NCBI GenBank assembly: GCA_000002445.1
Contig: CM000208.1
Location: forward strand, 1,408,001-1,472,000
Length of the DNA: 64,000 nt
Origin: Trypanosoma brucei
Taxonomy: Eukaryota
Reading direction: 5' to 3'
Positions 4,517 through 57,109 of this stretch are shown piece after piece (position 1 is the stretch's first letter; each line of letters starts with the position of its first letter). The notes under the pieces were generated by a model, which did not search any database, was not told where the DNA came from, and saw nothing but the letters and a program-made list of their open reading frames with translations. Position numbers and translations under genes: made by a program.

Positions 4517-6652
4517 ATGGCTACAACCTTGCCTTTACAGCAACAGCGACTCTTTGACAAACTCGCGCGCGATTTCGATGCACGGGAATATGCAAAGGGC
4601 CTGCGCACAGCCGACAGCATTCTGTCCGTCGTCCCCAACCACGCGGACACCCTCGCACTGAAGGGGTTGACGTTGCACCACATGGGTCGTAAGGAAGAGG
4701 GACGTGAAATCATCGAAAGCGCCCTCGGTTTCAACGATACTTCCACAGTTGTGTGGCATTCGCTCGGGATGTGCCACCGCGCAGATGATAATCACGTGGA
4801 GGCGCTGCATGCGTTCCAGAAGGCACACGAATACGGCCCATCGAACGTAAACGTTCTACGAGATATTTCATCAATCTGTGTACAATTGAGGGAGTGGGAG
4901 CAATTCGTGGACGTTCGCAGAAAGATGGTGACCTTAAGACCAGGCGTCCGCGCCAACTGGATTGCACTATCCTGTGGCCATCGCATGCTTGGAAACAAGG
5001 AATTGGCGGCTGCTGTGATAGACGTTATGACTACTATAATGGAAGCAGGAGATAACAGGGCGGAGAAGAGCGAAGTGCGCCTCTATCAGGTGGAACTAGA
5101 GTTGGCTTGTAATGCGCCTGCCCGAGCATTGGATCTACTGAAGAAACACAGCCAGGAGATCATCGATGAATACGAAAAGGCGTCTCTTCGCGCCAAAACT
5201 CACGCACTTCTCGGGCAAAAGGTGGAAGCTGAGAAATGGTACATGGAGCTCATCACCAGAGGAATGGCGGAGGCGGATTGCGTTGCCGCGATTGCCCAAT
5301 TGCGCAAGATTCCTCTTGACGCAGCCCGACGTCCAAAGCGTGATGTGGATAAATACCTAGAACTTCTTAAACAAGTTCAGGAAGTAAACCCCAAGAGTAA
5401 CTACGCCAAACGGCAGGTCCTGGAATGTGTGCCTATCGAGCAGTTCAGGGACCAACTTCGTGAATACGCGGGGATGTTCATAGTGAAAACCATTCCCTCG
5501 CTTTTCAGTGTTCTCAAATCACTTTATCAGTGTCCTGATCGCACACAGCATATTGGTGAGGTGTTCCATCAATGGGAAGAGGAACTCATGGCGGGAGATT
5601 TCTCAAGCTTCGGTGGAAAGAAAGATCCTACTTTTATTTTGTGGGTTTGGATGTATTTGGCTTCCCACTATTGCCGTATACGTGAGTTTGGACGGGCTTT
5701 GGAGTATATTGGCCGCGCCATCGACCACACACCAACGTTTGACCTTTTGTACCTCATGAAGGCGAAAATACAAGCGAAGAACAACCAGTTGGACGAAGCT
5801 GCGAAAACGGCCGATATGGCACGCCGGTTGGACCTACAAGACAAGTACCTCAACGGAAAGGCTGCCAAGTACTTCTTCCGCGCCAATAAGATTAGGGAGG
5901 GGGAAGCACTAATGCAAATGTTCTACAAGACCACTGAGGTACCTGACGATACATACCTTACTGCGCTGGAATCCCAGTGCGCATGGTATGAAAGAGAGGT
6001 AGGGGATGCGTATTATCGAATGGGTGACTACATCTCTGCACTATCAAATTACCTGATGTGCGAGAGCCACCACCAACGTAATCACAATGAATTGTCCGAG
6101 TTTCACAACTATGTATTTCGTAGGTGCACGATGAGGGCCTGGTTTAACGTGATCGCCTGTGACGACAACCTCGAAGAAAACAAATTCTTTCAGAAACTGT
6201 GCCCCCGTATCGTTAGGACATATATGAAGATTCATGAGGAAGGTGAGGAGGCTGTGCGAGCCAAATATGCTCCTAGACCAGAAGTGGGTAAGTATAGCGA
6301 TGTGGAGGAAGGAAAGCGTATCGCAAACCTGAGACGTACATTCTACTTGCACAACGTAGACATCTCCGATCCTCTCAAGAAAGCAGGGCGATATCTTCAG
6401 GCGTCCCTTCTGCACAATGCGCTGTCATCGGAGGTGCACCTCCTAGCAGTTGAGTTCTACACAATGTGCCGAATGCCCTTTCTCGTGGCACGTGAGTTGT
6501 TGATTTTGGCTAAGTTGAAATGTCCGTCGACGAATGAGCTTGTTACTCAGTTCGAAAACAACCTGTTTCGTGAAATGGCATCCAGCATGGATCCACGGGT
6601 GGAGTCCATAATCAAGGAAACGCTTACTACCGCTTTGGAAAAACTGAATTAA
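4517..6652 (+). CDS. NAA15: N-alpha-acetyltransferase NatA auxiliary (TPR) subunit, NAA15/Nat1-like
   Basis: The N-terminus aligns closely with NAA15: LFDKLARDFDAREYAKGL...ADTLALKGLTLHHMGRKEEGREI...VWHSLGMCHRADDNHVEALHAFQKAHEY...NVLRDISSICVQLREWEQFVDVRRKMVTLRP. TPR-like repeats run throughout the 711 aa. The track ORF starts at GTG 4511; the real ATG is at 4517. Confidence 0.85.
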   Translation: MATTLPLQQQRLFDKLARDFDAREYAKGLRTADSILSVVPNHADTLALKGLTLHHMGRKEEGREIIESALGFNDTSTVVWHSLGMCHRADDNHVEALHAFQKAHEYGPSNVNVLRDISSICVQLREWEQFVDVRRKMVTLRPGVRANWIALSCGHRMLGNKELAAAVIDVMTTIMEAGDNRAEKSEVRLYQVELELACNAPARALDLLKKHSQEIIDEYEKASLRAKTHALLGQKVEAEKWYMELITRGMAEADCVAAIAQLRKIPLDAARRPKRDVDKYLELLKQVQEVNPKSNYAKRQVLECVPIEQFRDQLREYAGMFIVKTIPSLFSVLKSLYQCPDRTQHIGEVFHQWEEELMAGDFSSFGGKKDPTFILWVWMYLASHYCRIREFGRALEYIGRAIDHTPTFDLLYLMKAKIQAKNNQLDEAAKTADMARRLDLQDKYLNGKAAKYFFRANKIREGEALMQMFYKTTEVPDDTYLTALESQCAWYEREVGDAYYRMGDYISALSNYLMCESHHQRNHNELSEFHNYVFRRCTMRAWFNVIACDDNLEENKFFQKLCPRIVRTYMKIHEEGEEAVRAKYAPRPEVGKYSDVEEGKRIANLRRTFYLHNVDISDPLKKAGRYLQASLLHNALSSEVHLLAVEFYTMCRMPFLVARELLILAKLKCPSTNELVTQFENNLFREMASSMDPRVESIIKETLTTALEKLN

Positions 6653-7531
6653 CCGAAGCGGGGTGTTTCACACTACTGCACACAAGCAGGTTTCCCGCTC
6701 AGCTCGCAAGGGGGAATAGGGTAGTGGAGGTGTCGTCATACAAAAACAGATGTGAGGGTGAGATAAACGTACCGAGTAATGGATGTAAGGGAAGGGGATG
6801 GCTCAAATGCAATATAACCCGATCACAACACAGACTGTGGTTGTTTCTGTGCAGCGTACACGTAGCGTGCATAAGGCCAGGTGAGTCCTCTACCGTTTTT
6901 CCAGGTAACGGCTCCCAACTTTCTCTCCCCACTTGTGTTTCCTTTGTGCTGAATCTTCTCTGGGTTACCTTTCATCGACTTCAGCTACATGGCCGCACTT
7001 CGTACTCCCTTATTCTATATACATAGTAGGCCAAGAACATTGAGTAGGCGCACGGTTTGTCCGACCGACCTAGCGAACGAAACAGGAAGGTAAAGCCAAA
7101 AACACATCAAAATAGCTGAGAATGTGTACATGTTATTATTTTTTTTCTTTTCACTGTATACGATAACGATGAAGTATCAGCAAACAAAGTGTATAAGACC
7201 TAGAGGATTTGCGGGGATCGCACACTGTGATGATGGCGTGTGCGGTGCCTAATGTGTCGCATTCGTACTACGAGGTTGTGCGTGTATGTGTGTGGGTAAT
7301 CATCCGCAATCTTTTACTGGAATCATTCTCACTGTTGCACGGGATGTAATATTTCATCTTCACTCCTTTGACTTATTGTTGTGGCAGAGGATGCTGAGGA
7401 GGATGTAGGAGTGCTCTTAAAGGAGATAGAGGAAGTGGAGAGGGTGTAGGTTGTTCTTGTTAATTGTATTTTAATATTAGTAATGTCTTGAGAGAAGTGT
7501 GTATTGTGTAGGTCTATGTATGTGTGTGTGT

Positions 7532-7540
7532 GGGGGGGGG
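7532..7540. repeat. G9 homopolymer within a GT-rich intergenic tract (7500-7560)
   Basis: gtgtgtgtgtggggggggg read directly. Other homopolymers: C11 at 17467-17477 followed by A12; C11 at 29978-29988; T9/C10 at 31873-31892; G14 at 40247-40260. Confidence 0.9.
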
Positions 7541-7800
7541 AGAGATTGTTGGTAGTTGGGAGAAGGGATAGAAAGAAGAAATGAGGGCTCTACGTAAAGT
7601 ACTTTGTGTCAGTGTTGTAGTTATAAATAATACCCGTCACTAAAGTCCGTTGCCACTCAGCGGAGTGCCGCGGGTCGTCGCGGCAGGGTCAATAACCATC
7701 ACCCAAATAACAGGATACCAAGCACCTAACTGGATTATTGAACGGAACGTGTATAAATAGGTATAAAGGAACGGATGCGTGGATCAGCTGCGGTAATATT

Positions 7801-7833
7801 CCACCCTCTCCTTTGTTCTTTGTTCTTTAAAGA
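7801..7833 (+). promoter_or_regulatory. polypyrimidine tract plus AG, likely spliced-leader acceptor for the ESAG6-like gene
   Basis: ccaccctctcctttgttctttgttctttaaag immediately upstream of the ATG at 7846, implying a very short 5'UTR. Confidence 0.5.
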
Positions 7834-7845
7834 AGGGTCGGACCT

Positions 7846-9030
7846 ATGAAGGTGAATTGTTTTCTACCTTTGTTGCTGTCAGTCAGTTATTGCACTTTAG
7901 CCGACGATAGCGCGCTCACACTGAAGGCGGGGGAAAGTATCTGCAAACTGTCGAAAAGGTTGAAGTCAGTGTTCAAGTATGTAGACCGAAGAACGGATAT
8001 TGCCTTGGAAAAGATCTCCGATCTTGAGGATATGTTGGAAGTGGTGAAGTTTAAGATTGTGAAGGGAAGGTCGAATAATACGAATAGAGAGTGCAAGGAT
8101 GTCTCCGATTTTATTATGAGTAAAGCAACTTGGTTGATAAGAAAAGGGAGGAAGGAGGTTGATAGATTGAAATACGTGGGGCTTGCGGCAATTGGAAATG
8201 CGGGACTGGCGGCAGGGAGGTTAGATGAGATGGTCAATGTGTGGAGGAGGGTGTACAGTGCCGGTACTGGAAACTTTTGCATTGGGGATGAAGGGAATGA
8301 AACAAAGAGGACTGCACTTCCAGATTGCTATCTGACAGATTCGGAGAGGGATGACTTTACTGGGATTGATGAAGGGGACAGGTTAGAAGATATAAACAAT
8401 GTTACCGCTGATGCCTTTAATGAATTATTGGAGTTGCATACAGAGGATGATTTGTGGAGTAGCCCATTGACGAGTGGCATGGACGGTAAGGACTGCCGTC
8501 TAACAAATGCCAGGTCTGGCGGAGGTTACCTCGTCGGAGAGAGCCCATCTGGTAATTTGTTTTGGGGAGACGGGGTGCTTGGGGTGAAGAGGGGTAGCCG
8601 AGGGTATGACGGAAGGACGTCGAATGTAAGGAGCAAATTACTCATAAATGATGTAGTGTGGGAAGCAGACACTGTAGAGCATACCCCTATTATAAGGAAT
8701 GTACACGAAGACTTGCAAAATTTTTTTATCGACGCAGAAAAAATTGATGAATTGGTGGGGGAGACTGGGGATAAGTGGAATTGGGAGTTCTCTCATGAAA
8801 TTGGAAGTCACAGTGGTCATCCCTCAGAGTTTGATGATGAGGAGACTGACGATGTAGCGGACAACACATCGGCAGTGGAAGAGGCAGTAGGGAAGGCATT
8901 TGTGGGGTTGGGAAATAGGGAAGCGTTTCAGGAAGAGATGGTGTTGGAAGAGATGGCGTTGTGTGGAGAATGTAATATTTACACTTATTACCAGTTGTTT
9001 TTCTTAGTTTTCGTTCCTGTTTTTGTTTGA
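7846..9030 (+). CDS. transferrin-receptor-like surface protein, ESAG6-like (PAG-like), with C-terminal hydrophobic GPI-signal-like tail
   Basis: N-terminal signal peptide (MKVNCFLPLLLSVSYCTLA). It matches the ESAG6/7 family core remembered from T. brucei ESAG6 (AAGRLEEWIFVFAQ...FCI; ...WGGGV...). Here the corresponding motifs are LAAIGNAGLAAGRLDEMVNVWRRVYSAGTGNFCIGDEG and LFWGDGVLGV...VVWEADTVEHTP. The C-terminus ECNIYTYYQLFFLVFVPVFV is hydrophobic, as in GPI-anchored ESAG6. Confidence 0.8.
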   Translation: MKVNCFLPLLLSVSYCTLADDSALTLKAGESICKLSKRLKSVFKYVDRRTDIALEKISDLEDMLEVVKFKIVKGRSNNTNRECKDVSDFIMSKATWLIRKGRKEVDRLKYVGLAAIGNAGLAAGRLDEMVNVWRRVYSAGTGNFCIGDEGNETKRTALPDCYLTDSERDDFTGIDEGDRLEDINNVTADAFNELLELHTEDDLWSSPLTSGMDGKDCRLTNARSGGGYLVGESPSGNLFWGDGVLGVKRGSRGYDGRTSNVRSKLLINDVVWEADTVEHTPIIRNVHEDLQNFFIDAEKIDELVGETGDKWNWEFSHEIGSHSGHPSEFDDEETDDVADNTSAVEEAVGKAFVGLGNREAFQEEMVLEEMALCGECNIYTYYQLFFLVFVPVFV

Positions 9031-9140
9031 ATCAGTTTCACTTGTTTTGCATCACCGTAGACCAGGTGTCTTTAACATGTGTATATCTTCGGTGGTGGTG
9101 TGTTAGCCTTCCGTGCTGATTTTTTTTTTTGATAGTAGAG

Positions 9141-10304
9141 ATGCTCAAGTTTGTTCTTGTGTTAATACTGATTATTGTTGGTGGTGACTATTGTTATCGT
9201 GGTAACGCTGGGGTGGCTTTGAAGTTGCAAGCCGTGAAGTCCGTGTGCAGAGCATCGAAAAAGCTTAAATCGGTTTTTACATTTGTGAAGGACAAACTGG
9301 AAAAAGCGGATAGAAACTTTTACGAGGTGAAACTGCTGCAAAAGCTACTCCGCTTGAAGCTTCTAACGGAATGGACTAAAGGAGAAAAGTGCGGGACAAT
9401 GAGGGTTTTTCTTACCAACATAAGGGCGAAGGAGAGAAATATGCGACGGGAACTGTCAGCCTTATGGAAAATGGGGAGGAGAGTTGTGGGTGAGGCAGGG
9501 ATTGCAGCTGGGAGACTGGACGAAATGGTGAATGTGTTCGCACAGTCGTACGGCAACGAAAGTGAAACGAAAACGTGTATTGGGGGTACAAATGGCAGTC
9601 CTATGGAGGTTTTGAAAAGGTGCTACGCTAACAATTCCAAAACAGGGGAATGGGAGTTCCTCACAATTACAGAGGGGGGAGAACTGTTTGACAACGAGTT
9701 TGAGACAAACTTGGAGACCACGCTTCACGTTATGTTGTCGCTTGGGAATAGAGCCGATCCGTGGTATGACTATGGAAAGGATATGGGGTGTCAACTCACT
9801 AAAGGAGCCCCTGGGGGTGGGTACATGAAGAGCCATAACCTCACAGAGAACATCATTTGGGGTGATGGCATACTCGGGGTGAGCAAAAATGGAAATGGAA
9901 CTACCGGCTCCAAAGGAAACACGAGAGATGGGAAATATGCTCACGATGTCGTGTGGGAAGCAGAACCCACGAAAAATAATCCCACTCTCCGCAGGGTGAT
10001 CAAAGATTTTAGTGCATTCGAAGAATTATTTGCGAAGGTGGAGTCTTCCCACAAGCTGTTAATAGATGCATTTCTCCAGGAGAAATTGTTTGCTGAGGAA
10101 TTCGAGGCTCTTGCGGTTAGAACTAAGAAGAAAAGAGTGATCATTGGCGGTTCCACCTCCACCAAAAATAAGCAGAACAATGCCTTGGGGGGTAGTGGTG
10201 CCGGCGATGATAACGAAGTGAGTATGGAAGAGTGGTTGTCGCAAGTGGATGGGGGAATTGTAGAAGAGAGGTTGTTGGCGGAGGAAATGAAGGAGTGTAC
10301 GTAA
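9141..10304 (+). CDS. transferrin-receptor-like surface protein, ESAG7-like (PAG-like), lacking a C-terminal hydrophobic tail
   Basis: Paralogue of the preceding gene (GEAGIAAGRLDEMVNVFAQSYGNESETKTCIGG; IIWGDGILGV...DVVWEAEPTKNNPTLRRVIKDF). Signal peptide MLKFVLVLILIIVGG. The protein ends ...ERLLAEEMKECT with no hydrophobic GPI signal, the arrangement of ESAG7 relative to ESAG6. The track ORF starts at TTG 9129; the real ATG is at 9141, preceded by a T10 polypyrimidine tract and AG. Confidence 0.8.
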   Translation: MLKFVLVLILIIVGGDYCYRGNAGVALKLQAVKSVCRASKKLKSVFTFVKDKLEKADRNFYEVKLLQKLLRLKLLTEWTKGEKCGTMRVFLTNIRAKERNMRRELSALWKMGRRVVGEAGIAAGRLDEMVNVFAQSYGNESETKTCIGGTNGSPMEVLKRCYANNSKTGEWEFLTITEGGELFDNEFETNLETTLHVMLSLGNRADPWYDYGKDMGCQLTKGAPGGGYMKSHNLTENIIWGDGILGVSKNGNGTTGSKGNTRDGKYAHDVVWEAEPTKNNPTLRRVIKDFSAFEELFAKVESSHKLLIDAFLQEKLFAEEFEALAVRTKKKRVIIGGSTSTKNKQNNALGGSGAGDDNEVSMEEWLSQVDGGIVEERLLAEEMKECT

Positions 10305-11928
10305 ACTACCTTGCACAAATTGGATAAAACTGCTTACCTAATATACAAATACATGTTAATATTGGATATAGTAATGTTTCCCCACTGGATTGATATTTGG
10401 GGTTCCCTTTTTTAAATTAGTTTCTTTGTGTTAAAGTGCCTGTAACTTTGTGGAGATGTCCGCCAACGAAACTACGCTGTTGCTGTTGGTTGTTGTGAGC
10501 GTACATTCTCGTCGAAACGCTTTGAGAAAACGAATCACAAAAGAATATATGTCAGGGAGTTGGCTGCCGCCCACCAACCCTGCGACAAGGACGAATGTAT
10601 AATCCTCAGTTTTTGAAATACTGAAAACATTTGTTGCCATGACACTTCCTCATTCGACTGTTGGTCCGTAGATACATGGTAAAGTATATGATTTACTCCG
10701 TAATCCACTAAAAAATTTGGGAGGGTAATATATAAAAAGTTGTCCCTTTTTAAGATCAAAAAGTTGTTTGAGAGGTGGCGGAAGTCCGCAGTCGCCGAGG
10801 TTGGGGAAATTACACCACAGTGGGGCCCAGGGTACCAGTGGCAACTGGATAAGAGGCCTGTACAATCCAATTAAACAAGTATCGTGCATTTTCTTGTTTT
10901 GAAAATAATATTGTAACGTGGCAACCACATTAGTGAAGTAAAGTTAGTATGTTTATGCGTGCACCTCTTGTGAGAGCGGTAGAGGCGAGGTCGACGCAAC
11001 AATAGGGATCAAGTCACTGGACGCCCCCCTCAAAAAAAAAAAAAGTAAGTGATCTCTCACTTCTCAACCATTAGTGGCGCTGGAAACTTCAAACGGTTTC
11101 AAAGGCCTGACTAACCAGTAATGTTGAGGAATTCCAAGAAAAAAGGCAACGTCCTACACACGAGAATCGTCGTTGCGTGCCACATACGGCGTTTCACAAG
11201 CGCACACGTACCGAGCTATCGCATATTTTTCACACCAGTTGCATTGGACACAGTTTCATGTGAAGGGGCGACTCTCACCAAACAAAACAAAGCTGGAGAG
11301 AAACAACTCACTGCCAAATAAGTCACCACAGTCATGCCCCGGTTTACCACCCCTTTTCAGTCGCCCCTCGCCTGTCTGTGCTTTTGGATGCTCCCGCAGC
11401 ACAACAAGGTTTAACCGTACAAAACGATGTTGAATCGAGCTGTATTTCGCGATACGTCGGCAACATCCGCCAACTGGTTGAGTCTCAGTTACCTTCCGTT
11501 AACGTGCTACATGCGTTCTCCTTGTGACGGGGAAAGCAAAGGTTGACTTAGTGATACGACCAAGACGTCTGTTAGCGCCCATACCAACAACGACTAACCA
11601 GAAGAGCATTCACGTCCCACGTTGGCAAGTCGTTTAACTTCGTCCGATTACAAAGACAAGAAAAAAGTCTTTCATCCGCCTCGGCGTGGAAAGCGAGGAG
11701 GTCATCAGCATTTCAAGATTCCTAATCCTAACCTTATTAATAAACACGTTGCTCCCCAAACCACTAATTTCAAATTTACATTAGGGACGAAACTCTCGTT
11801 GGCAAACAAATCGCAATGTCTTAGCATAAAAGCAATCGCCAGACTATCGAAACGCGTACTGTTGTGTGTCACATTTTTATTTTCTAAAACAAAATTTTAT
11901 TGGTATTTGTGTGATAGAAGATCAACTA

Positions 11929-12624
11929 ATGGACAAGCAGGAAATGTTGATTCTGTTATTTTCTTTACTGTTTCTTCGCAACCCAGCGGAAGCTTACATT
12001 TCGCGCTGGTATCTACGCCCGGATCGCGACCCGGATTGCACAGATTTGAAAGGCGTATCTGACGTTCTGACCATGATGCGTGATGCTGAAGTTGCCAAAT
12101 ACGCGACCAAAAATTGCACACAACTAAAGGGGGAGGACTCGCGTACAGGGAAGCAGACGGGCAACTGCACTATTTGCGTTGGTCATTACATCTGCCATTC
12201 TCTGTATAAATGTGTGAGTAAAGACTTTGTCAGGTTTTTTGGAAATGGTAGCCAGGAAGAACCCGCAAGCGAAGAAAAAAAGGACAACGAGTCGGCTCTA
12301 GATGCTGCAGACACTTCCTCCTCAGGAACTGGAACTGAGTCTCCTGAAGAAACTACTGGCGGTAGAACCAATGTTAGATCTAATGTGGAAGATGTGAATG
12401 ACGGTAAGGAGAATGTGACCTCTCCTGAAGAAGAAAGCAGGGGCGCTCCACACGGTACCGCGGTTCCCCCTCTCGAGGAAAGAAGCCCGAACCCTACTGA
12501 CAGAAACAACCTAACACGTAATCACGTCTTAACTCTATTTGCTGGAAAATTTTCAAGCAATTCTCAACTTGTGTTGAATTTAAACAATAAGATTATGCTT
12601 TCAACGTTATTTTTCTTGCTATAA
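11929..12624 (+). CDS. small secreted, probably GPI-anchored, acidic, N-glycosylated protein, copy 1 (family not recognised)
   Basis: ATG at 11929 checked; the track ORF begins at GTG 11866. Signal peptide MDKQEMLILLFSLLFLRNPAEA. The cysteine-containing N-domain has several N-x-S/T sites (NCTQ, NCTI, NGSQ, NESA, NVTS). An acidic S/T/E-rich middle follows (EEPASEEKKDNESALDAADTSSSGTGTESPEETTGG...). The C-terminus KIMLSTLFFLL is hydrophobic and GPI-signal-like. Confidence 0.55.
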   Translation: MDKQEMLILLFSLLFLRNPAEAYISRWYLRPDRDPDCTDLKGVSDVLTMMRDAEVAKYATKNCTQLKGEDSRTGKQTGNCTICVGHYICHSLYKCVSKDFVRFFGNGSQEEPASEEKKDNESALDAADTSSSGTGTESPEETTGGRTNVRSNVEDVNDGKENVTSPEEESRGAPHGTAVPPLEERSPNPTDRNNLTRNHVLTLFAGKFSSNSQLVLNLNNKIMLSTLFFLL

Positions 12625-13202
12625 AAAAGACGAGAGATAAACTAGTTTGCTAACTGAAAACAATCCAAAACCCCTAACTGTATTGCCGCTGTCCACGTAC
12701 ATATATGTTCATATCACCTATGAGCACCCAGTGGGTGTGTTCCAACATATATTTCCTCCCTATTTTGCGTACCCTTTTCATTTCGCAGGCACCATAGTGC
12801 TCATAACATCATATGTTTACAGATACGCCGAAGTTACTCTACATAGAGTAAGCGTACAAAACATATAACAGAAGGGGCTGCGTAATTAGCGATACTGTTT
12901 GCCAGTTACGTAACACAACAAATACTTGCTAGGTACCCACCTTGGACAGAGGCACGGGTGGAGTCGTGGACAATGTGTTGTGTGCTGCCGTTATCGATCA
13001 GTTGTGGCGAATGGTTGAACATGTACACTGTGAGTAAAGTGCCCCCTATAATACCTTTGTGAAACAGGAAAAGGTGTTTTAATGCATAGTAACCCTTATT
13101 GGTGGGTTGTAGTTGTTTCATCAAAATTTGTGTTGTTGTGTATTATATTTTTATTTTCCAAAACAAAATTTTATTGGTATTAGTGTGATAGAAGATCAAC
13201 TA

Positions 13203-13886
13203 ATGGACAAGCAGGAAATGTTGATTCTGTTATTTTCTTTACTGTTTCTTCGCAACCCAGCGGAAGCTTTCGAATCGCGTTCGTATGTAAAGCCAGATGG
13301 AGACCCGGACTGCACAAATTTGACAGGTGTTTCTCATGTTCCCTATCACAATGATATGGATGATTACGCGGAAGAAAATTGCACAAAAATAAAGACACCG
13401 TCTCATAATAAAGAGCAGACGGGCAACTGCACTCTTTGCGTTGGTCATTACATCTGTCATTCTCTGTATAAATGTGTGAGTAAAGACTTTGTCAGGTTTT
13501 TTGGAAATGGTAGCCAGGAAGAACCCGCAAGCGAAGAAAAAAAGGACAACGAGTCGGCTCTAGATGCTGCTGACACTTCCTCCTCAGGAACTGGAACTGA
13601 GTCTCCTGAAGAAACCACTGGCGGCAGAACCAATGTTAGATCTAATGTGGAAGATGTGAAGGACGGTAAGGAGAATGTGACCTCTCCTGAAGAAGAAAGC
13701 AGGGGCGCTCCACACGGTACCGCGGTTTCCCCTCTCGAGGAAAGAAGCCCGAACCCTACTGACAGAAAGAACCTACCACATGATCGCTTCCTCGCTTTAT
13801 TTACTGAACACTTTTTAAGCAATTCTCAACTTGTGTTGAATTTAAACAATAAGATTATGCTTTCAGCGTTATTTTTCTTGCTATAA
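13203..13886 (+). CDS. small secreted, probably GPI-anchored, acidic, N-glycosylated protein, copy 2 (paralogue of 11929..12624)
   Basis: ATG at 13203 checked. The signal peptide is identical and the region NCTLCVGHYICHSLYKCVSKDFVRFFGNGSQEEPASEEKKDNESALDAADTSSSGTGTESPEETTGGRTNVRSNVEDV is near-identical to copy 1. Divergent parts are FESRSYVKPDGDPDCTNLTGVSHVPYHNDMDDYAEENCTKIKTPSHNKE versus YISRWYLRPDRDPDCTDLKGVSDVLTMMRDAEVAKYATKNCTQLKGEDSRTGK. Hydrophobic tail IMLSALFFLL. Confidence 0.55.
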   Translation: MDKQEMLILLFSLLFLRNPAEAFESRSYVKPDGDPDCTNLTGVSHVPYHNDMDDYAEENCTKIKTPSHNKEQTGNCTLCVGHYICHSLYKCVSKDFVRFFGNGSQEEPASEEKKDNESALDAADTSSSGTGTESPEETTGGRTNVRSNVEDVKDGKENVTSPEEESRGAPHGTAVSPLEERSPNPTDRKNLPHDRFLALFTEHFLSNSQLVLNLNNKIMLSALFFLL

Positions 13887-15445
13887 AAAAACGAGAGATA
13901 AACTAGTTTGCTAACTGAAAACAATCAGAAATAGAGAGTGATATCGTTCATACGTGTTTAATTGTATTTTTTTACCAATATTGCTGTATGTTTCTTTGAA
14001 CATTTAGTGGCTTGTAGTATTGTACGGTAGTGGAAAAGGTAGACACCTAATGGGGTTTGTACTTCTGTTGATGGTGGTGTAGTGTTGTTAAAGGATAGCG
14101 CTATTGACAGGGGATTGCGTGTAACGAGGGAATGGAAAATGTGTTTGGGACTAATGGAAGGGAAACGTAGATAACATAATGTAGTGAGGTCGCGTAATTA
14201 ATGCTCATTACGGTAGCATGGCTTCGTGGCGGGGTCTGATGGATACGCAACGGCATGCGTGGGGTGAACAGGGGCTATGTTACCCAGGCAAATACGGAGA
14301 GAAATTGTATGCCACTGCATCGTTGCGCGGTGTAGGAAGGATATTGACCACATGGGATGTTATGTTGTACGAATCTGGTTTCTCTTTTGTCCTAATCTCC
14401 TAGTTGGGGGTGGAAAGGGAATCTGCTAGAGGAAACGGGGAGAGGCATTATGTCTGCGGCGGTTTCGTTGGTCGAGGGAAATGGGTATGGATATTAGATC
14501 CGACTTGAGAGCCGCTCTTCACTACACCAGATTGCGGAGCTCTATCCGAAGGAAAAGTGCACCGGCACGGTGGGCAATTGGGTAGAGTGCTCAGAGTTGT
14601 GAGTATATGCTAGGGTGTATTTGCATATTTCCTGCTGAACCAAAGCGGGAGACAGGAATAAGCGGGGATAATGGGATGGTTTCTCGTGGTTTGTACTGCT
14701 ATGCGCGGATGTTTTGTCAGGTGTGGACGACGGGTTAACTGAGGGGCGGCGTTTCCCGAAAAGAAAAGTGCGGAGCGGATGCGACGCAGATATATTTTTA
14801 AGGCGCGTAATTGGCAGTGCGGTAAGCATACTGAGGGATATCGGAAAATAGGACAGTGAATATGCGGAGGGGAGTGAGCAATGGCAACTCCTGAAAAATG
14901 AAAGACCAAGAGGCGACGCCGGTACGACACACGAGGAAAGCACAGAAGCATTTTCGCGTTGTTGGCCATCCAGCAAGCTTTTCCTCCCATCCATACAATG
15001 CTTCCGCTGCCCCTTTCACGTACATTGGTCCCCGCAGGTGTAGTTCCTGTGGATAATTCTCTTAGGGTTAAGTTCGATTTCTCCGCGTGAAGTGGTGTAC
15101 CCCCAAAATTCCCCATTATTGTTCGTCCCACCTTTACAGTTTGCGGTTTCCTTGCAGGCCTCTTTTTCTACACATCCGTAATCAAATTTGTTTGCCGCTT
15201 CCGTGTCAATGGATGTTCATTGGGTGCCACCGCAGAAGTGGTAGGGGACTCTGGGGCGAACGCTGTTTTTGACAAGTTCCAGAGTTTTCTGATTTTGTTA
15301 CTCTTTGTTTTAGTGATTTGTCGATCCATGACCTTCTGAGGCAGCTCTACGTTAGCCCCCGTTTCATATAGTTGTTGTTGTTTTTCCAAACGCTTTGCGG
15401 GCGTTTACGCACTCCTCGACGTCCACTCCCCGTATTGTACGGCCT
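13887..15445. other. convergent strand-switch region between the plus-strand unit (ends 13886) and the minus-strand unit (last gene ends 15446/16406), presumed Pol II transcription termination zone
   Basis: All confident ORFs left of 13886 are on the plus strand and all right of 15446 are on the minus strand. The region is relatively GC-rich and holds only overlapping short ORFs (14542-15131) with no recognisable product. I found no tRNA-like T-loop (GGTTCGAnTCC) by eye. Confidence 0.7.
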
Positions 15446-16039
15446 CTACGGGCAGGTCGTGGAGTCTCCAAACCCCTTTTCGTGCATTTGACACCTAAAC
15501 TTTTTCGCTTTCACAATGAAAACTTCCGGGGGAATCTCGGAAAGAGGTGGTATAACTGAGGCGGTTGTGCAGGTTCGAAGGCTTTGCCCATCTATAGCAA
15601 GGTGATTTCCAGCCGTACCGTTCATTTCATGCACCGACACTTCGCCCCAGAGAAAATAGCTCGGTTGAGCGGCATCAGCAACAACAACAAAAGAGAGGAA
15701 AAACGATCGTAGTTGCTCCACCTTCATGTTTCCCCAACCCGCGCCGCAGGCATGAGGAACGCAAGCCTGCGCTACACAACCAGTAAGGGTGACCGCCACA
15801 GTTCCCTGCACTTGATTCATTTCGAAATGCAAAATTGCGCGTCCTCCTCGCCGCCTGCAAAAAATAGGATCAACGCTCAGTTGTTTTAGTGGTGTTCTGT
15901 AATCCTGGCGCAGAAAAGTGGTGTTAAGATTTAATTCCTTCAGCCCCCAAGCATCTCGTGACTGCAAGAAAATGAAGAGAAGCATTACAACACCGACATG
16001 CCACCAGCGAACGCATGAGAATAAGACAGCGCTGGGCAT
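15446..16039 (-). CDS. hypothetical protein with N-terminal signal-peptide-like segment; last ORF of the minus-strand unit
   Basis: ATG at 16039 checked. 197 aa, N-terminus MPSAVLFSCVRWWHVGVVMLLFIFLQSRDAWG, no recognised domain. It lies directly beside the termination region, so it could be spurious. Confidence 0.3.
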   Translation of the reverse strand: MPSAVLFSCVRWWHVGVVMLLFIFLQSRDAWGLKELNLNTTFLRQDYRTPLKQLSVDPIFCRRRGGRAILHFEMNQVQGTVAVTLTGCVAQACVPHACGAGWGNMKVEQLRSFFLSFVVVADAAQPSYFLWGEVSVHEMNGTAGNHLAIDGQSLRTCTTASVIPPLSEIPPEVFIVKAKKFRCQMHEKGFGDSTTCP

Positions 16040-42037: not shown

Positions 42038-45000
42038 TTATTTAATGGATGCATGACGGCCGTGGTAATCACCAATCAGTAAAGTCCTCACCGACTCACG
42101 CACCAAAGCTGGTAATATTGGCGGCAGTTTCTTTTTGATAGCCTCGGGGGTGAGATTCTGTTTAATTTCTTCTAGAGTGCACACCCCAGCGAACTGTTCA
42201 GCCGAGACGTACTTTAGCAAATCCTTTGTGCCTATCGCTTTCCTTATGTCTCTTGCTTGCTGCCTCCTCAAGATGTAAGTTTGGTCAGTTTGTTCCGAAG
42301 AGACGGAGCTGTTGCTTCTTAAATGAGCTTGTTCCATTGATGCATACCCCTTTGACGGCGCGGCCCGCACCAATAGGTGAATCTCATCCTTAATGAGAGA
42401 GGCAAGAGCGACGTGCAACCACCTGTAGAATTCCTCTGTTGTCGTCTGCGTAACAAAAGAAGACCAACTCGCACGCAGGGCGTAATTGTGGGCACCAACG
42501 GACTCAATAAACAAGCGCTCCGCGTTGTCACTTGCAGAGCAATTCTGCTGCACTCTCCTCCTAACGGATTCGTACGCGCCATAGGATACAAAATCATCCA
42601 CGCAAGTAACGGAGTCATTGCAAACCTCTCGGTGCATATCACTTGAACCAACCACACGTTCAACTGCGTTGCATCGCACGTTTGCATCGCTCTCGCACGA
42701 CGCAGCTTCCAGGAAACCACATGTTACTTCCGACTTCTCGCCACCAACAATATATGGAAGCGCATCGTTAGAAAATGTGGCACTGTCCACATCGGGAAGT
42801 GTGCCACCCGCCGTGTTTTCGCGGACGGCTGTCTTTTTGAAGTTGCGCCCGCTTTCCAAGTAGTGAGGATGAATATTAGGTGTTGCGTCAGGTTCCTGTA
42901 GAACCTTAGCATAGAACTCAGCAGTGTTTCCTACGCCCCCAAGTATACCTGCAACCGGTCGAGTGATGAGTCCCACAGCTCCGGTGGCAACGCCAGTAAC
43001 GAAACCTGTCAAGCCTGAGGTTCGCACGCCGTTGAGCGGACGTGAGAAAACGCCCGCAATGCCATCACGTAAGCCCTGCCCCATACCCCACAGCACTCCT
43101 CCCTTCTTCGCAGGGTCACCTACGCGGTGATGCCCTTCACTCACTTGCTCAAGCCACTCGTTGTCCCACGAGAAGTTCGCCGCAGTGCGACTGCCGGCAT
43201 GGGAAATTAACCCAACGGAGTGCAAAGTGGAGGATGTCGTCGTACACAGGAAGTCACGCAACCCCTTAAGCATATTCATTTCTGCTGTCCCAAGTAGAAG
43301 GGATCGGACACCTCTCTTCCACCCACTCAACAGTGCAATAGGATTTCCGAGAACTTCCATGGAACCAACAATCCTAGGAAACTGCAGGGCAAGTTGGTTG
43401 CGATATAGCGGCCACAGTGCTTCCAACAGCGCGCAGCCTACCGAGTTACTTCGCTGGTTTATATCTTCCATACTTATACCGTTTATACTCAAAGGGGCGC
43501 GCTCTACCGAAGGTATGAAACGGCTTATGGAAAATAAACCCGCGAACGGATCGTACAAGCCATCCTTGCGCCGAGTAATGGTAAACTCCAACTCAACTGG
43601 TGATACCTCTAACGTTGCAATGTGATAGTTATTAACAGCACCACGTTCGCGCAGCTCCGTGGTAGATAATTCATCCTTCGTGCTTGGTTTGCAAACATTC
43701 GAACCAGTCACATAACTTTCCTCCGTACTTTTCATCTGACACTGCTCGCTCTCCAAGCAACAAGCCGCCTGCTGGAGCAGAAACAAGAACGTGTCCGACA
43801 CCTTTACGGTAACGGGCGCGACCTTAACAGAGACGCTCCTTATCCGGATGGTTTTCACCTTCTTCTTATTTGAGGTCATATCAATGGCGGCGCGCCGTTC
43901 AGGTACAAGAACATGCAATTGTAGAGAAAGACAGGGTTTCTTCAGTATATTGCCTGAAACGGCACCAACCGCGTCGACGGTATTGATTAGTACAACAACA
44001 GGGTGAACTGGTTCTGGTGTGGTGCAGTCCACGACAGCCACACGACCAACATCCATCCGACCGAAGCAATGCCTTTGATTGAGCGATGCCGTACAGTATA
44101 TTCCAGTCGCTTCCATAAGGATCAAATCCAATTCACGGCACTGGATATAAGACAGTGCTTGTGCGTCCGTAAAGCTAGAGTTCGTTGTGGGCACAAAATG
44201 GAATTTGTTTTGAGTCACAAACGGGGCCAAGGGCGTGTCTAGCAGCGAATGAACTGTTTTCGGAACGCATTTGGAGGCAACGTAGAGCGACACCGTGTGG
44301 ACAAGCACTTCCAAATGCAGGATACGTTGTGGCCTAAATACAAGGGCACTTTCAAGAGAGCGGTCGCCTGTTACAGAAATGTGATACTTCTGCTGCCCGC
44401 AGTCAAGGGTGCAGAGCACAAACATATCCGGTGCCACCTTTACTCCCTCACACGCAGTTGCGACTTCGTCGAGGTTTATCGTGCAAGTCTGAGAGTACCC
44501 ATAGTCGCCATGCAACGTCAAGCGTATGGCAGCATTCGCGTCGTCACTCTCAAAGCAAGTCACACTGTCGGTGAAGGGTTGCACAATGTATGAACGCTCG
44601 GCCTTTGAGACGCCCGACAAAGAGTGTGGCATCTCTTCGTAAATCAGAAGACGGTTTGTGCGGTTTTCAACAACGATATGCGTACCCCCATCCAGGTCAA
44701 AGTCAACTAAGAAGCGTGACCTCCGCTTGTTCGGCACAATAGAAAGACAAGCAAAATTCTCTGGAATGGGATCATCTCCATAAAGTGGCGGAACACGTAA
44801 TGAGCGGAGTGTTATGACGCCCATTGAATTTAATAGGTTCCGGAACGCTGGATCCCTCCCATCAGTGCTTCCCGTCGAAACGTAATGCTTCATTACAATA
44901 GGCACATTCAAAGTCGACAGCGTTAAAAGCCTCACTTTGTTTGACCAAACGAAGAGGTCACCCACCTCCTTATGGACATAGCAAACTTGCACGAGTGGGT

Positions 45001-56269: not shown

Positions 56270-57109
56270 GCTATACACGGAAATTTACCCTCAAACTTTC
56301 TCAGGTTTACTCGCAGATTTAAAGCCAACGCCGTTTTTCAGACGTCTGCCACCTCCCATAACCAATTGCTGGCAACACCTTACTTCGCTTAACTAAGGCT
56401 AGTGGAGAATTTCACACGGTTTCACAGCGATGTGTCACCGTCCTTTTTTTTTCCCCCACCCTAATTTTCCTTAATGTGAGCCAGCGGATAAGACCGCTTG
56501 GAAACGAGGAGGGACTTGCTTCTTGTTTAAAAAAAAATAAAAATAAATTACAAATACCCTAAACCCACAGCTGAATCAGGGATAGGAAAGGTGATAAAAA
56601 AAAAATCAAACCCGAACAGCGAAGAATGACATGGAAAAGCAGAGGCGCAAAAGAAATGTAGGCAGGAAGAAACCGGTATGAGAGCGATCTTACATTTTGT
56701 TTTGACAAGGTATCACATGAATTTGGAGAGAAAACGCGCATCTACTTAAAAAGAGTGGTGAAAGGTGAACATGCAATTCCACACATCTCTCGTCACAAAA
56801 ACCCTAACACACGCAAAACATGGGGGAAGGCTACATCTTTGATGCCGCATGGAAAGTGGCGCCTCCCCCGGAAAAAAAAAAAACCTGCAGAAGCCAAGGT
56901 GTTCCGAAGTGAGAAAAGAGGGAAAAAAACAAAGAGAGTAACAGTTTACTTTCTGCGTTCACCGCACTTCCTGGTCCTTCATCATACATTTTCGTTACCC
57001 ATCTATTGTATTCCCAGGTTATAACAACCCCCCAAATAACAACAACTTTGCAGGCGTCATCATTCCTCTACTTCTTCCCTCCCCTCCTTAGCAGCCATTT
57101 CATGCGGTC

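What the first reader, a model, noticed from the sequence alone, without database searches (positions are those of the whole stretch)
7846..10304. Chromosome-internal ESAG6-like / ESAG7-like gene pair with GPI-tail versus no-tail asymmetry
The two adjacent paralogues share the ESAG6/7 (transferrin-receptor, VSG-fold) core (AAGRLDEMVNV..., CIG..., WGDG(V/I)LGV..., VVWEA...). Only the first has a hydrophobic C-terminal GPI-anchor-like tail (…YYQLFFLVFVPVFV). The second ends in a charged tail (…LLAEEMKECT). That is the asymmetry that lets ESAG6 (anchored) and ESAG7 (non-anchored) form the heterodimeric transferrin receptor. Here the pair sits inside an ordinary Pol II unit downstream of NAA15, not in a telomeric VSG expression site. 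This resembles the PAG / ESAG6/7-like genes and may be a heterodimeric receptor for a different ligand or life-cycle stage. Pairwise identity is only moderate, so it is an old duplication rather than a recent expression-site copy.
Basis: partly seen in the sequence, partly recalled or inferred. Interest (0 to 1): 0.7.

Follow-up and report, generated by a model that had tools for sequence, protein, structure and literature searches.

The report
Known PAG-like receptor gene pair
These are two already-annotated Trypanosoma brucei genes (Tb927.10.5680 and Tb927.10.5690) related to the parasite's transferrin receptor; others have already predicted that they form a one-anchor heterodimer on bloodstream parasites, and what it binds is still unknown.

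Summary
Two adjacent + strand ORFs (7846-9030, 394 aa; 9141-10304, 387 aa) are 27-31% identical paralogues with the VSG-A / ESAG6-7 fold. Only the first ends in a hydrophobic tail.

They are identical to T. b. brucei TREU927 XP_822812.1 and XP_822813.1, annotated 'PAG1, putative' and 'PAG2, putative'. I infer these to be Tb927.10.5680 and Tb927.10.5690. They lie on chromosome 10 at the end of a + strand gene run, next to a convergent strand switch.

In my tree they fall in the PAG-like family (Fam14), not in the ESAG6/7 clade. The first gene is sister to PAG1 and the second to PAG5, each with 100% bootstrap.

The literature already covers most of the interpretation:
- The cluster is bloodstream-form up-regulated (2009, 2010).
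- PAG-like genes sit at strand-switch regions (2009).
- GPI+/GPI- pairing of PAG-like genes has been noted (2013, 2021).

So the reading is supported but not new. Still untested are the GPI anchor (my simple rule finds only weak cleavage-site candidates), dimerisation, the ligand and the transcribing polymerase. One modest addition: T. brucei PAG-like genes are paralogous two-gene cassettes, this pair matching PAG1/PAG5 and the chromosome 11 pair matching PAG2/PAG4.

The parts
4517..6652 (+). Upstream housekeeping gene: N-terminal acetyltransferase A auxiliary subunit (NAA15). It marks the same-strand transcription unit.
   Evidence: Pfam PF12569 NatA_aux_su, E 1.5e-81. The orthologue is called at 711 aa in L002 and L003.
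6653..7845 (+). Intergenic region of 1.2 kb between NAA15 and gene A. It holds a pyrimidine-rich stretch (about 7801-7829) just upstream of the ATG.
   Evidence: Sequence read. It shares no DNA similarity with the chromosome 11 PAG-like locus. No promoter test was possible.
7846..9030 (+). Gene A, inferred to be Tb927.10.5680 (old Tb10.70.1310), annotated 'PAG1, putative'. 394 aa; the PAG1-like subunit carrying the membrane-anchor tail.
   Evidence: Zero mismatches to TREU927 XP_822812.1. PF00913 8e-11. 6SOY_A ESAG6 E 6.9e-14. Sister to PAG1 with 100% bootstrap and 42% identity.
7846..7902 (+). Predicted signal peptide of A (MKVNCFLPLLLSVSYCTLA).
   Evidence: N-terminal hydrophobic 11-mers start at residues 3-9. 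This is a heuristic; no formal predictor was run.
8965..9027 (+). C-terminal tail of A (G374-ECNIYTYYQLFFLVFVPVFV), a putative GPI-addition signal that follows the family-invariant Cys373.
   Evidence: Uncharged run of 19 aa; last 15 aa have mean KD 1.81; only weak cleavage-site triplets (G374-E-C, A371-L-C). The tail is identical in T. b. equiperdum despite a nearby 5-aa deletion.
9031..9140 (+). Intergenic spacer of 110 nt between A and B. It has a T11 tract (9120-9130) and AG dinucleotides (9134-9140) immediately before the ATG of B, so A's 3' UTR and B's 5' UTR must both be very short.
   Evidence: Sequence read. The chromosome 11 PAG-like pair has a similar 130-nt spacer.
9141..10304 (+). 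Gene B, inferred to be Tb927.10.5690 (old Tb10.70.1300), annotated 'PAG2, putative'. 387 aa; the PAG5-like subunit with a signal peptide but no membrane anchor.
   Evidence: Zero mismatches to TREU927 XP_822813.1. PF00913 2.5e-13. 6SOY_B ESAG7 E 5.8e-20. AF2 model pLDDT 83.7, pTM 0.81, with 6SOY as the top Foldseek hit (target-normalised TM 0.75). Sister to PAG5 with 100% bootstrap and 56% identity.
11929..12624 (+). Downstream gene C, inferred to be Tb927.10.5700. 231 aa, with a signal peptide and a GPI-type tail; belongs to the same co-regulated cluster.
   Evidence: 80% identical to D. Strong cleavage-site candidate SNS plus a hydrophobic tail. No Pfam match. Savage 2012 lists it as GPI-predicted.
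13203..13886 (+). Downstream gene D, inferred to be Tb927.10.5710. 227 aa; a tandem duplicate of C.
   Evidence: DNA repeat 11860-12665 versus 13134-13926, 88.5% identical. T. b. equiperdum carries three copies.
13887..15445 (.). Convergent strand-switch region that ends the + strand unit; the first - strand ORF is at 15446-16039.
   Evidence: ORF strands. GC-skew sign change at about 16 kb. No tRNA genes. The literature describes a convergent strand-switch region between Tb927.10.5710 and Tb927.10.5720.

Best explanation
The two ORFs are known T. b. brucei chromosome 10 genes, inferred to be Tb927.10.5680 (A) and Tb927.10.5690 (B). Both belong to the PAG-like branch (Fam14) of the VSG-derived transferrin-receptor superfamily.

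Shown here: both have signal peptides and the ESAG6/7-type elongated helical-bundle fold. A carries a C-terminal hydrophobic tail and B has none. A is the paralogue of PAG1 and B of PAG5. The genes are separated by 110 nt and are the first two genes of a four-gene surface-protein cluster at the end of a transcription unit, beside a convergent strand switch.

From the literature: the cluster's mRNAs are strongly up-regulated in bloodstream forms.

Inferred mechanism: both proteins enter the secretory pathway and pair through their long N-terminal helices, as ESAG6/ESAG7 and VSG dimers do. The complex is held on the bloodstream-form surface or flagellar pocket by a single lipid anchor on A, which retains the otherwise soluble B. 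It would present a membrane-distal head that binds a host macromolecule other than transferrin. It would therefore be an orphan heterodimeric receptor.

Confidence splits as follows: about 0.97 for identity and family, about 0.55 for the heterodimer, and about 0.35 for a host-ligand receptor function. The figure given (0.6) is an overall value for the whole statement.
For: Identity: zero mismatches to TREU927 XP_822812.1 and XP_822813.1. The neighbours match the published locus: Tb10.70.1310/1300/1290/1280 at a convergent strand switch on chromosome 10, Tb927.10.5700/5710 as related GPI-predicted genes, and a strand-switch region between .5710 and .5720.

Family and fold: PF00913; 6SOY ESAG6/7, E 7e-14 to 6e-20; AF2 model of B with pLDDT 83.7 and 6SOY_A/B as top Foldseek hits, E 7e-13, target-normalised TM 0.75, ahead of A-type VSGs at E 5e-5.

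PAG-like clade: A+PAG1 and B+PAG5 each at 100% bootstrap, separate from ESAG6 and the T. congolense ESAG6-like proteins.

Asymmetry: hydrophobic tail only in A. The same tail / no-tail pairing recurs in the chromosome 11 pair. It also recurs in at least five T. congolense PAG-like pairs, which I infer to be adjacent because their accession numbers are consecutive and they lie on the same contigs.

Co-expression: both genes are up in bloodstream forms, 3.6x and 9.9x and 122x and 14x.

ORF integrity: both ORFs are intact in T. b. equiperdum and T. equiperdum OVI, and A shows 4-7 synonymous changes against 1 non-synonymous.
Against: No experimental dimer data are in the text I could read.

The GPI signal of A is atypical. 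The only cleavage-site triplets have Cys at the +2 position. The one Big-PI supplementary table I searched, which covers proteins of known or predicted function, lists PAG4 and Tb11.01.6220 but not this gene.

The preprint's screen against complement components reported no partner for this pair, so no ligand is known.

I found no paper text naming either protein in a proteomic or localisation dataset. Supplementary tables were mostly not searchable.

B shows 2-3 non-synonymous against 0-1 synonymous changes between subspecies. The numbers are too small to read, but they give no sign of constraint.
Confidence: 0.6

Rival explanations
1. The two proteins act separately. A would be a GPI- or tail-anchored surface protein, probably a homodimer like VSGs. 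B would be a secreted or homodimeric soluble VSG-fold protein. Their adjacency would simply reflect tandem duplication.
For: A and B are only 27-31% identical, far less alike than the ESAG6 and ESAG7 chains, which read as near-identical over most of the stretches aligned. A-type VSGs with the same fold form homodimers (established knowledge of the family). Reported fold-changes for the two mRNAs differ: 122x against 14x, and 3.6x against 9.9x.
Against: The tail / no-tail pairing is kept in three T. brucei cassettes and in several T. congolense pairs, which is hard to explain without a functional link. The genes are 110 nt apart and co-regulated. A group working on trypanosome receptor structures predicted a heterodimer.
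Confidence: 0.2
2. The locus matters mainly as DNA or RNA. PAG-like sequences at strand-switch regions would act as transcription termination or insulation elements, and the proteins would be dispensable or barely made.
For: Haenni et al. 2009 report that PAG1 contains elements promoting Pol I termination. [quoted passage not shown] This pair lies about 3.6 kb from a convergent strand switch. Haenni et al. 2006, which I cite by its title only, report that the procyclin-locus PAGs are not essential for tsetse transmission (reference lists).
Against: Both ORFs are full-length and intact in three Trypanozoon genomes, and their coding divergence is lower than the intergenic divergence in three of four coding-versus-intergenic comparisons. 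They keep signal peptides, six conserved cysteines and a confidently predicted fold. Their mRNAs accumulate up to about 100-fold more in bloodstream forms. I found no non-coding similarity to the chromosome 11 PAG-like locus that would suggest a shared DNA element. This role would not exclude a protein function.
Confidence: 0.1
3. The pair is a second, invariant, chromosome-internal transferrin receptor that backs up the expression-site ESAG6/7 receptor.
For: The fold and the one-anchor architecture match ESAG6/7. Expression is in the bloodstream stage. Jackson 2013 states that positions of the transferrin-binding domain are conserved across ESAG6/7, the PAGs and their T. congolense relatives. 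Two unnamed PAGs rise on iron starvation.
Against: Identity to ESAG6 is only about 20% and the pair lies in a different clade. Silencing the transferrin receptor causes an iron-starvation response and compensatory import of free iron, with no sign of rescue by another receptor (abstract and text). The PAGs induced by iron starvation are not identified as this pair in the text I read.
Confidence: 0.05

Closest known systems
PAG1 / PAG5 of the EP/PAG1 procyclin locus (T. brucei chromosome 10; Fam14 'PAG-like' of Jackson et al. 2013)
   Same: They are the closest relatives: A-PAG1 42% identity and B-PAG5 56%, each pair at 100% bootstrap. The order is the same, with the tailed gene first and the tail-less gene second (consecutive accessions EAN78417 and EAN78416). 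They share the invariant C-terminal Cys and the AAGRLDEM and WGDG motifs.
   Different: PAG1 and PAG5 lie downstream of procyclin genes in a Pol I unit, and PAG-family members in the procyclin loci are more highly expressed in procyclic forms. This pair has no procyclin genes nearby, follows housekeeping genes, and is up-regulated in bloodstream forms.
ESAG6/ESAG7 heterodimeric transferrin receptor (PDB 6SOY/6SOZ; Fam15)
   Same: Same VSG-A-derived fold: Foldseek top hit with target-normalised TM 0.75 and sequence E down to 6e-20. Same arrangement of two adjacent paralogues, one with a hydrophobic C-terminal signal and one without. Same bloodstream-stage expression.
   Different: Only about 20% identical and in a separate clade. 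Located inside the chromosome, not in a telomeric expression site. Here the tailed gene comes first. The two partners are 27-31% identical, whereas the ESAG6 and ESAG7 chains read as near-identical in the alignments. The pair is nearly invariant between subspecies. The ligand is unknown.
Chromosome 11 PAG2-like / PAG4-like pair (Tb11.01.6210 / Tb11.01.6220)
   Same: Another chromosome-internal PAG-like pair with a tail / no-tail combination. It has a 130-nt spacer, is followed by other surface-protein genes, lies at a convergent strand switch and is 73-90x up in bloodstream forms.
   Different: It is the paralogue of PAG2/PAG4, not of PAG1/PAG5. The gene order is reversed, with the tail-less gene first. 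The tail-less member ends in a basic amphipathic extension that B lacks. Its neighbours are ESAG2/ESAG11-like genes, not the Tb927.10.5700/5710 family.
T. congolense 'Transferrin receptor-like, PAG-like' genes
   Same: Same family in the profile search (E 1e-75 to 1e-41). They occur as neighbouring tail / no-tail pairs, judged from consecutive accessions on the same contigs.
   Different: They form species-specific clades that are not one-to-one orthologues of A or B. Most are on short, unplaced contigs 4-30 kb long.

Membership tests
PAG-like family (Fam14, Jackson et al. 2013) | The closest sequence relatives are the T. brucei procyclin-associated genes, not ESAG6/7 or VSGs. | tested here: met
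   NJ tree on 352 columns with 200 bootstraps: A+PAG1 100%, B+PAG5 100%. The PAG-like clade is separate from ESAG6 and the T. congolense ESAG6-like proteins, with 74% and 95% support. Identities are; source annotations are.
PAG-like family (Fam14, Jackson et al. 2013) | VSG A-type N-terminal domain (PF00913) without a VSG C-terminal domain. | tested here: met
   PF00913 is the only Pfam hit for both proteins, at 8e-11 and 2.5e-13.
Procyclin-associated gene in the strict, positional sense | Lies downstream of EP/GPEET procyclin genes in the Pol I procyclin transcription unit. | tested here: not met
   No (EP)n, (DP)n or GPEET repeats in any frame of the 64-kb window. The upstream genes are NAA15, a DnaJ protein and a BILBO1-N protein.
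PAG-like sequences at transcription-unit boundaries (Haenni et al. 2009) | Located at a strand-switch region or a site of polymerase change. | tested here: met
   The + strand ORFs end at 13886 and the - strand ORFs begin at 15446. GC skew flips. A convergent strand-switch region between .5710 and .5720 is described. H3V enrichment could not be tested here.
ESAG6/ESAG7 transferrin receptor (Fam15, strict sense) | Sequence falls inside the ESAG6/7 clade. | tested here: not met
   20.1% (A) and 20.5% (B) identity to ESAG6, and a separate clade.
ESAG6/ESAG7 transferrin receptor (Fam15, strict sense) | Elongated helical-bundle VSG-like fold with a membrane-distal head. | tested here: met
   Tested for B only. 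AF2 pLDDT 83.7, pTM 0.81. Foldseek top hits are 6SOY_A/B, E 7e-13, TM 0.63 by query and 0.75 by target. The model of A was poor (pLDDT 46), so A rests on sequence homology.
ESAG6/ESAG7 transferrin receptor (Fam15, strict sense) | Genes lie directly downstream of a telomeric bloodstream expression-site promoter. | tested here: not met
   Housekeeping genes flank the pair on both sides across the 64 kb.
ESAG6/ESAG7 transferrin receptor (Fam15, strict sense) | Heterodimer of one GPI-anchored and one anchor-less subunit. | tested here: inconclusive
   The tail / no-tail asymmetry is present. A heterodimer prediction is reported in a preprint.
ESAG6/ESAG7 transferrin receptor (Fam15, strict sense) | Binds host transferrin. 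| not testable with these tools
   This needs binding assays. No report was found in the searches.
GPI-anchored protein (gene A) | N-terminal signal peptide plus a C-terminal hydrophobic segment with no cytoplasmic residues after it. | tested here: met
   Hydrophobic N-terminus at residues 3-19. The protein ends in a 19-residue run with no charged residue, whose last 15 residues have mean KD 1.81.
GPI-anchored protein (gene A) | Canonical cleavage (omega) site: small residues at omega and omega+2, followed by a short polar spacer. | tested here: inconclusive
   My own crude rule finds only G374-E-C and A371-L-C, both with Cys at omega+2. ESAG6, PAG1, PAG4 and genes C and D give strong candidates under the same rule. 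The gene is not in the one Big-PI supplementary table I searched. No formal predictor could be run offline.
A-type VSG (variant antigen) | N-terminal domain plus a VSG C-terminal domain, with VSGs as the closest relatives. | tested here: not met
   No C-terminal-domain Pfam hit. VSGs are much more distant than PAGs or ESAG6 in the profile search (E above 1e-17, against 1e-26 for ESAG6 and 1e-41 to 1e-103 for PAG-like proteins). Fold-search hits to VSGs are at E 5e-5.

The most novel reading that the evidence does not exclude
The T. brucei PAG-like family may consist of two kinds of two-subunit cassette, each kept in duplicate. One cassette is PAG1-type (tailed) plus PAG5-type (tail-less): this pair, and PAG1/PAG5 in the procyclin locus. 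The other is PAG4-type (tailed) plus PAG2-type (tail-less): the chromosome 11 pair, and PAG2/PAG4 in the procyclin locus. The chromosome-internal copies are bloodstream-stage and the procyclin-locus copies are linked to insect-stage Pol I transcription. The parasite would then carry two distinct, invariant, single-anchor heterodimeric receptors of transferrin-receptor architecture, each with stage-specific isoforms, and both with unknown host or vector ligands. The paired phylogeny is shown here. The functional reading is inference. I did not find the cassette-for-cassette correspondence spelled out in the papers I could read.
Probability: 0.3. Interest if true: 0.55.

Novelty: already known. 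Interest (0 to 1): 0.2.

Why it matters
Trypanosome surface receptors are few, and each solved case (transferrin, haptoglobin-haemoglobin, factor H, C3) has revealed a host-parasite interaction. An invariant bloodstream-stage heterodimer with transferrin-receptor architecture and no known ligand would be a legitimate orphan receptor and a possible non-variant antigen.

The genes, their stage regulation, their position at a strand switch and the heterodimer idea are all already in the literature, and at least one laboratory has the recombinant complex. This finding therefore opens no new question. It re-derives an existing one from raw sequence.

Tried and rejected
1. The word-indexed protein search with a four-sequence alignment returned only two of its own input sequences. 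I replaced it with the full HMMER scan.
2. AF2 of A with a four-row alignment gave an unusable model, pLDDT 46.
3. I built a fused A-linker-B alignment paired with six other cassettes, including ESAG6+ESAG7, to test the heterodimer.
4. The procyclin-locus DNA could not be fetched because PAG5 (P0003) is not on record. The order PAG1-PAG5-PAG2-PAG4 therefore rests on consecutive accessions and on the gene order implied by Haenni 2009.
5. Supplementary tables of the 2026 preprint, Haenni 2009 and the 2022 GPI/N-glycan atlas are not held as text. I could not read the published GPI calls or the list of PAG-like loci.
6. I looked for non-coding DNA shared between this locus and the chromosome 11 locus, as a possible common promoter or terminator. 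Only short coding-region matches appeared.
7. There are no tRNA genes at the strand switch.
8. I rejected a procyclin-locus identity because the window has no EP or GPEET repeats.
9. I rejected 'recent expression-site copy', the status Jackson 2013 gives to Tb927.7.3250/3260, because identity to ESAG6 is only 20%.
10. dN/dS between subspecies has too few substitutions to be informative for B.


Full report
**What is in the sequence**

The region holds two + strand ORFs: A at 7846-9030 (394 aa) and B at 9129/9141-10304. The mechanical ORF list starts B at a TTG. The real start is the ATG at 9141, giving 387 aa, which is the length of the annotated orthologue.

A and B are clear but old paralogues. 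BLASTP gives E = 2e-34 and 31% identity over 303 residues, and identity is 27% over a full alignment.

Both proteins begin with a hydrophobic signal-peptide-like segment. A ends in ...LCGECNIYTYYQLFFLVFVPVFV. That is a 19-residue run without charged residues, and its last 15 residues have a mean hydropathy of 1.81. B ends in ...EEMKECT and has no hydrophobic C-terminus.

**Family and fold**

PF00913, the VSG A-type domain, is the only Pfam match for both proteins. Among solved structures, only the ESAG6 and ESAG7 chains of the T. brucei transferrin receptor (6SOY/6SOZ) match. E is 7e-14 and 4e-13 for A, and 6e-16 and 6e-20 for B.

An AF2 model of A from a four-sequence alignment was unusable, with pLDDT 46. 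A model of B from a 41-sequence alignment was good, with pLDDT 83.7 and pTM 0.81. Its best Foldseek matches in the PDB are 6SOY_A and 6SOY_B (E 7e-13, target-normalised TM 0.75). A-type VSGs follow at E of about 5e-5, and three-helix-bundle receptors are far behind.

**Identity of the genes**

A is residue-for-residue identical to T. b. brucei TREU927 XP_822812.1 ('PAG1 polypeptide, putative'). B is identical to XP_822813.1 ('PAG2 polypeptide, putative'). Both are on the 4.05-Mb chromosome 10 record, so the window is TREU927 chromosome 10 or an identical strain.

The neighbours fit this placement:
- On the + strand lie a BILBO1-N-domain protein, a DnaJ protein and NAA15.
- A and B follow, then two 80%-identical small genes, C and D, with signal peptides and GPI-type tails.
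- Then comes a switch to - strand genes: an RTE1-like protein, a LigB-like protein, adenylate kinase, CDC48/VCP and an amino-acid transporter.

This matches published descriptions. Veitch et al. 2010 list Tb10.70.1310 (PAG1 putative).1300 (PAG2 putative).1290 and .1280 (hypothetical) as a cluster at a convergent strand switch on chromosome 10. Savage et al. 2012 treat Tb927.10.5700/5710 as two related GPI-predicted genes. Fernandez-Moya et al. 2014 describe the convergent strand-switch region between Tb927.10.5710 and .5720.

From gene order I infer that A is Tb927.10.5680 and B is Tb927.10.5690. No tool gave this mapping directly.

**Position within the family**

A full HMMER scan with a profile of A, B, PAG5 and the chromosome 11 PAG2-like protein found 66 relatives. 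The source names show they are T. brucei PAGs, T. congolense 'transferrin receptor-like, PAG-like' and 'ESAG6-like' proteins, ESAG6 and VSGs.

I built a neighbour-joining tree on 352 columns with 200 bootstraps. It gives these groupings:
- A with PAG1 (100%).
- B with PAG5 (100%).
- The chromosome 11 PAG2-like gene with PAG2 (100%).
- The chromosome 11 PAG4-like gene with PAG4 (100%).

The PAG-like proteins as a group are separate from ESAG6 plus the T. congolense ESAG6-like proteins. Identities are A-PAG1 42%, B-PAG5 56%, and A or B to ESAG6 about 20%.

The pair is therefore PAG-like (Fam14 of Jackson et al. 2013). It is not ESAG6-like and ESAG7-like one-for-one. It is also not a procyclin-locus PAG, because the window has no EP or GPEET repeats.

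**The tail / no-tail theme is family-wide**

After an invariant C-terminal cysteine, family members end in one of two ways:
- With a hydrophobic tail: A, PAG1, PAG4, the chromosome 11 PAG4-like gene, and T. congolense P0088, P0022, P0019 and P0021.
- Immediately, or with a basic tail: B, PAG5, PAG2, the chromosome 11 PAG2-like gene, and T. congolense P0017 and P0015.

On chromosome 11 the two kinds are neighbours 130 nt apart. In T. congolense they carry consecutive accessions on the same small contigs. In this window the spacer is 110 nt, with a T11 tract and AG dinucleotides right before B's ATG.

The four procyclin-locus PAGs thus read as two cassettes, PAG1+PAG5 and PAG2+PAG4. Each has a chromosome-internal paralogous cassette. 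That correspondence is the one modest addition this analysis makes.

**What is already published**

- Jensen et al. 2009 found both mRNAs higher in bloodstream forms, 3.6x and 9.9x.
- Veitch et al. 2010 found 122x and 14x, noted the convergent strand switch, and left the transcribing polymerase open.
- Haenni et al. 2009 noted six annotated PAG-like genes in TREU927. Almost all are at strand-switch regions and in H3V-enriched chromatin. They also showed that PAG1 DNA promotes Pol I termination.
- Jackson et al. 2013 defined Fam14 and Fam15 and marked GPI+/- status.
- Tiengwe et al. [quoted passage not shown]
- A 2023 review lists PAG function as uncharacterised.
[quoted passage not shown] Its complement-component screen reported binders only for ISG65, the factor H receptor, Tb927.10.3620 (not confirmed) and Tb927.11.1470.

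**Most likely mechanism**

Shown here: two secretory-pathway proteins of transferrin-receptor fold, one with and one without a C-terminal membrane-anchor signal. They are encoded 110 nt apart in a co-regulated bloodstream-stage cluster.

Inferred: they pair through their long helices as ESAG6/7 and VSG dimers do. A's lipid anchor retains B. The head binds a host macromolecule that is probably not transferrin, since the pair is only about 20% identical to ESAG6 and lies in a different clade. It is also apparently not one of the complement components screened.

I put identity and family at about 0.97, the heterodimer at about 0.55, and a ligand-binding receptor role at about 0.35.

**Caveats**

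- The GPI signal of A is atypical. My crude rule finds only G374-E-C or A371-L-C as cleavage sites, both with Cys at +2, whereas ESAG6, PAG1, PAG4 and genes C and D give canonical sites.
- The one Big-PI supplementary table I searched, which covers only proteins of known or predicted function, contains PAG4 and Tb11.01.6220 but not this gene.
- I could not run a formal predictor or a multimer model.
- 'Ordinary Pol II unit' is plausible from strand and neighbours, but I did not test it.

**Conservation**

In T. b. equiperdum (L002) and T. equiperdum OVI (L003) both ORFs are intact. A shows 4-7 synonymous changes against 1 non-synonymous, plus one in-frame 5-residue deletion that leaves the tail untouched. 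B shows 0-1 synonymous against 2-3 non-synonymous changes, which is too few to interpret. Coding divergence (0.2-0.7%) is lower than the flanking intergenic divergence (0.6-1.6%) in three of four comparisons; A in L003 (0.68%) slightly exceeds the B-C spacer in L002 (0.62%).

**Rivals**

- The two proteins act independently (0.2).
- The locus works mainly as a DNA-level boundary element, as Haenni 2009 proposed for PAG sequences (0.1; this would not exclude a protein function).
- The pair is a back-up transferrin receptor (0.05).

**Verdict**

Interest is low for discovery purposes. The open question, the ligand of an orphan heterodimeric receptor, is real but already being pursued.

Noticed in passing
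window 11860-12665 and 13134-13926 (genes 11929-12624 and 13203-13886, + strand): A tandem duplicate of a small gene (231 and 227 aa, 80% protein and 88.5% DNA identity). It has a signal peptide, a Cys-rich N-terminal part, an acidic Ser/Thr-rich stretch and a canonical GPI-type tail (SNS cleavage site), with no Pfam match. I infer these to be Tb927.10.5700/5710. Reports on their stage conflict: Veitch 2010 finds them 18-95x up in bloodstream forms, while Savage 2012 finds them low and salivary-gland specific. T. b. equiperdum (L002) has three copies against two here.
   Followed up: partly
window 9031-9140; L001 9255-9384: The spacers inside both chromosome-internal PAG-like pairs are very short (110 and 130 nt). 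Polyadenylation of the first gene and trans-splicing of the second must share about 100 nt. Here a T11 tract and three AG dinucleotides sit directly before the ATG, implying a 5' UTR of only a few nucleotides for B.
   Followed up: partly
L002 4720-5889 versus window 7846-9030: The T. b. equiperdum orthologue of A (P0007, 389 aa) lacks five residues (VLEEM) within the EEMVLEEMALC repeat, just upstream of the invariant Cys. The hydrophobic tail is unchanged.
   Followed up: yes
alignment A1, last conserved column (A Cys373, B Cys386): Six cysteines are conserved between A and B (A 33, 83, 145, 161, 217, 373). The last lies 1-2 residues from the end of the tail-less subunits and just before the tail of the anchored ones, after a conserved helix (...LLxEEMxxC). 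In the AF2 model of B this C-terminal helix is confident (pLDDT 81-91) after a disordered linker (residues 331-355). Whether this Cys forms an intra-chain or inter-chain disulfide is unknown.
   Followed up: no
NJ tree: The tailed PAG4-type clade groups with the tail-less PAG5/B clade at 100% bootstrap, not with the other tailed proteins. The anchor signal must therefore have been gained or lost at least once within the PAG-like family.
   Followed up: no
window 42038-56278 (- strand): A single ORF of 4746 aa, encoding a giant protein. It was not characterised.
   Followed up: no
window 13887-15445: The convergent strand-switch region has no tRNA genes. The literature reports transcripts from this region that are bound by RBP33 and silenced in an RBP33-dependent way.
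   Followed up: partly
window 7500-7550: A (GT)n run followed by a G9 run (gtgtgtgtgtgtggggggggg) lies in the 1.2-kb spacer upstream of gene A. Its significance is unknown.
   Followed up: no
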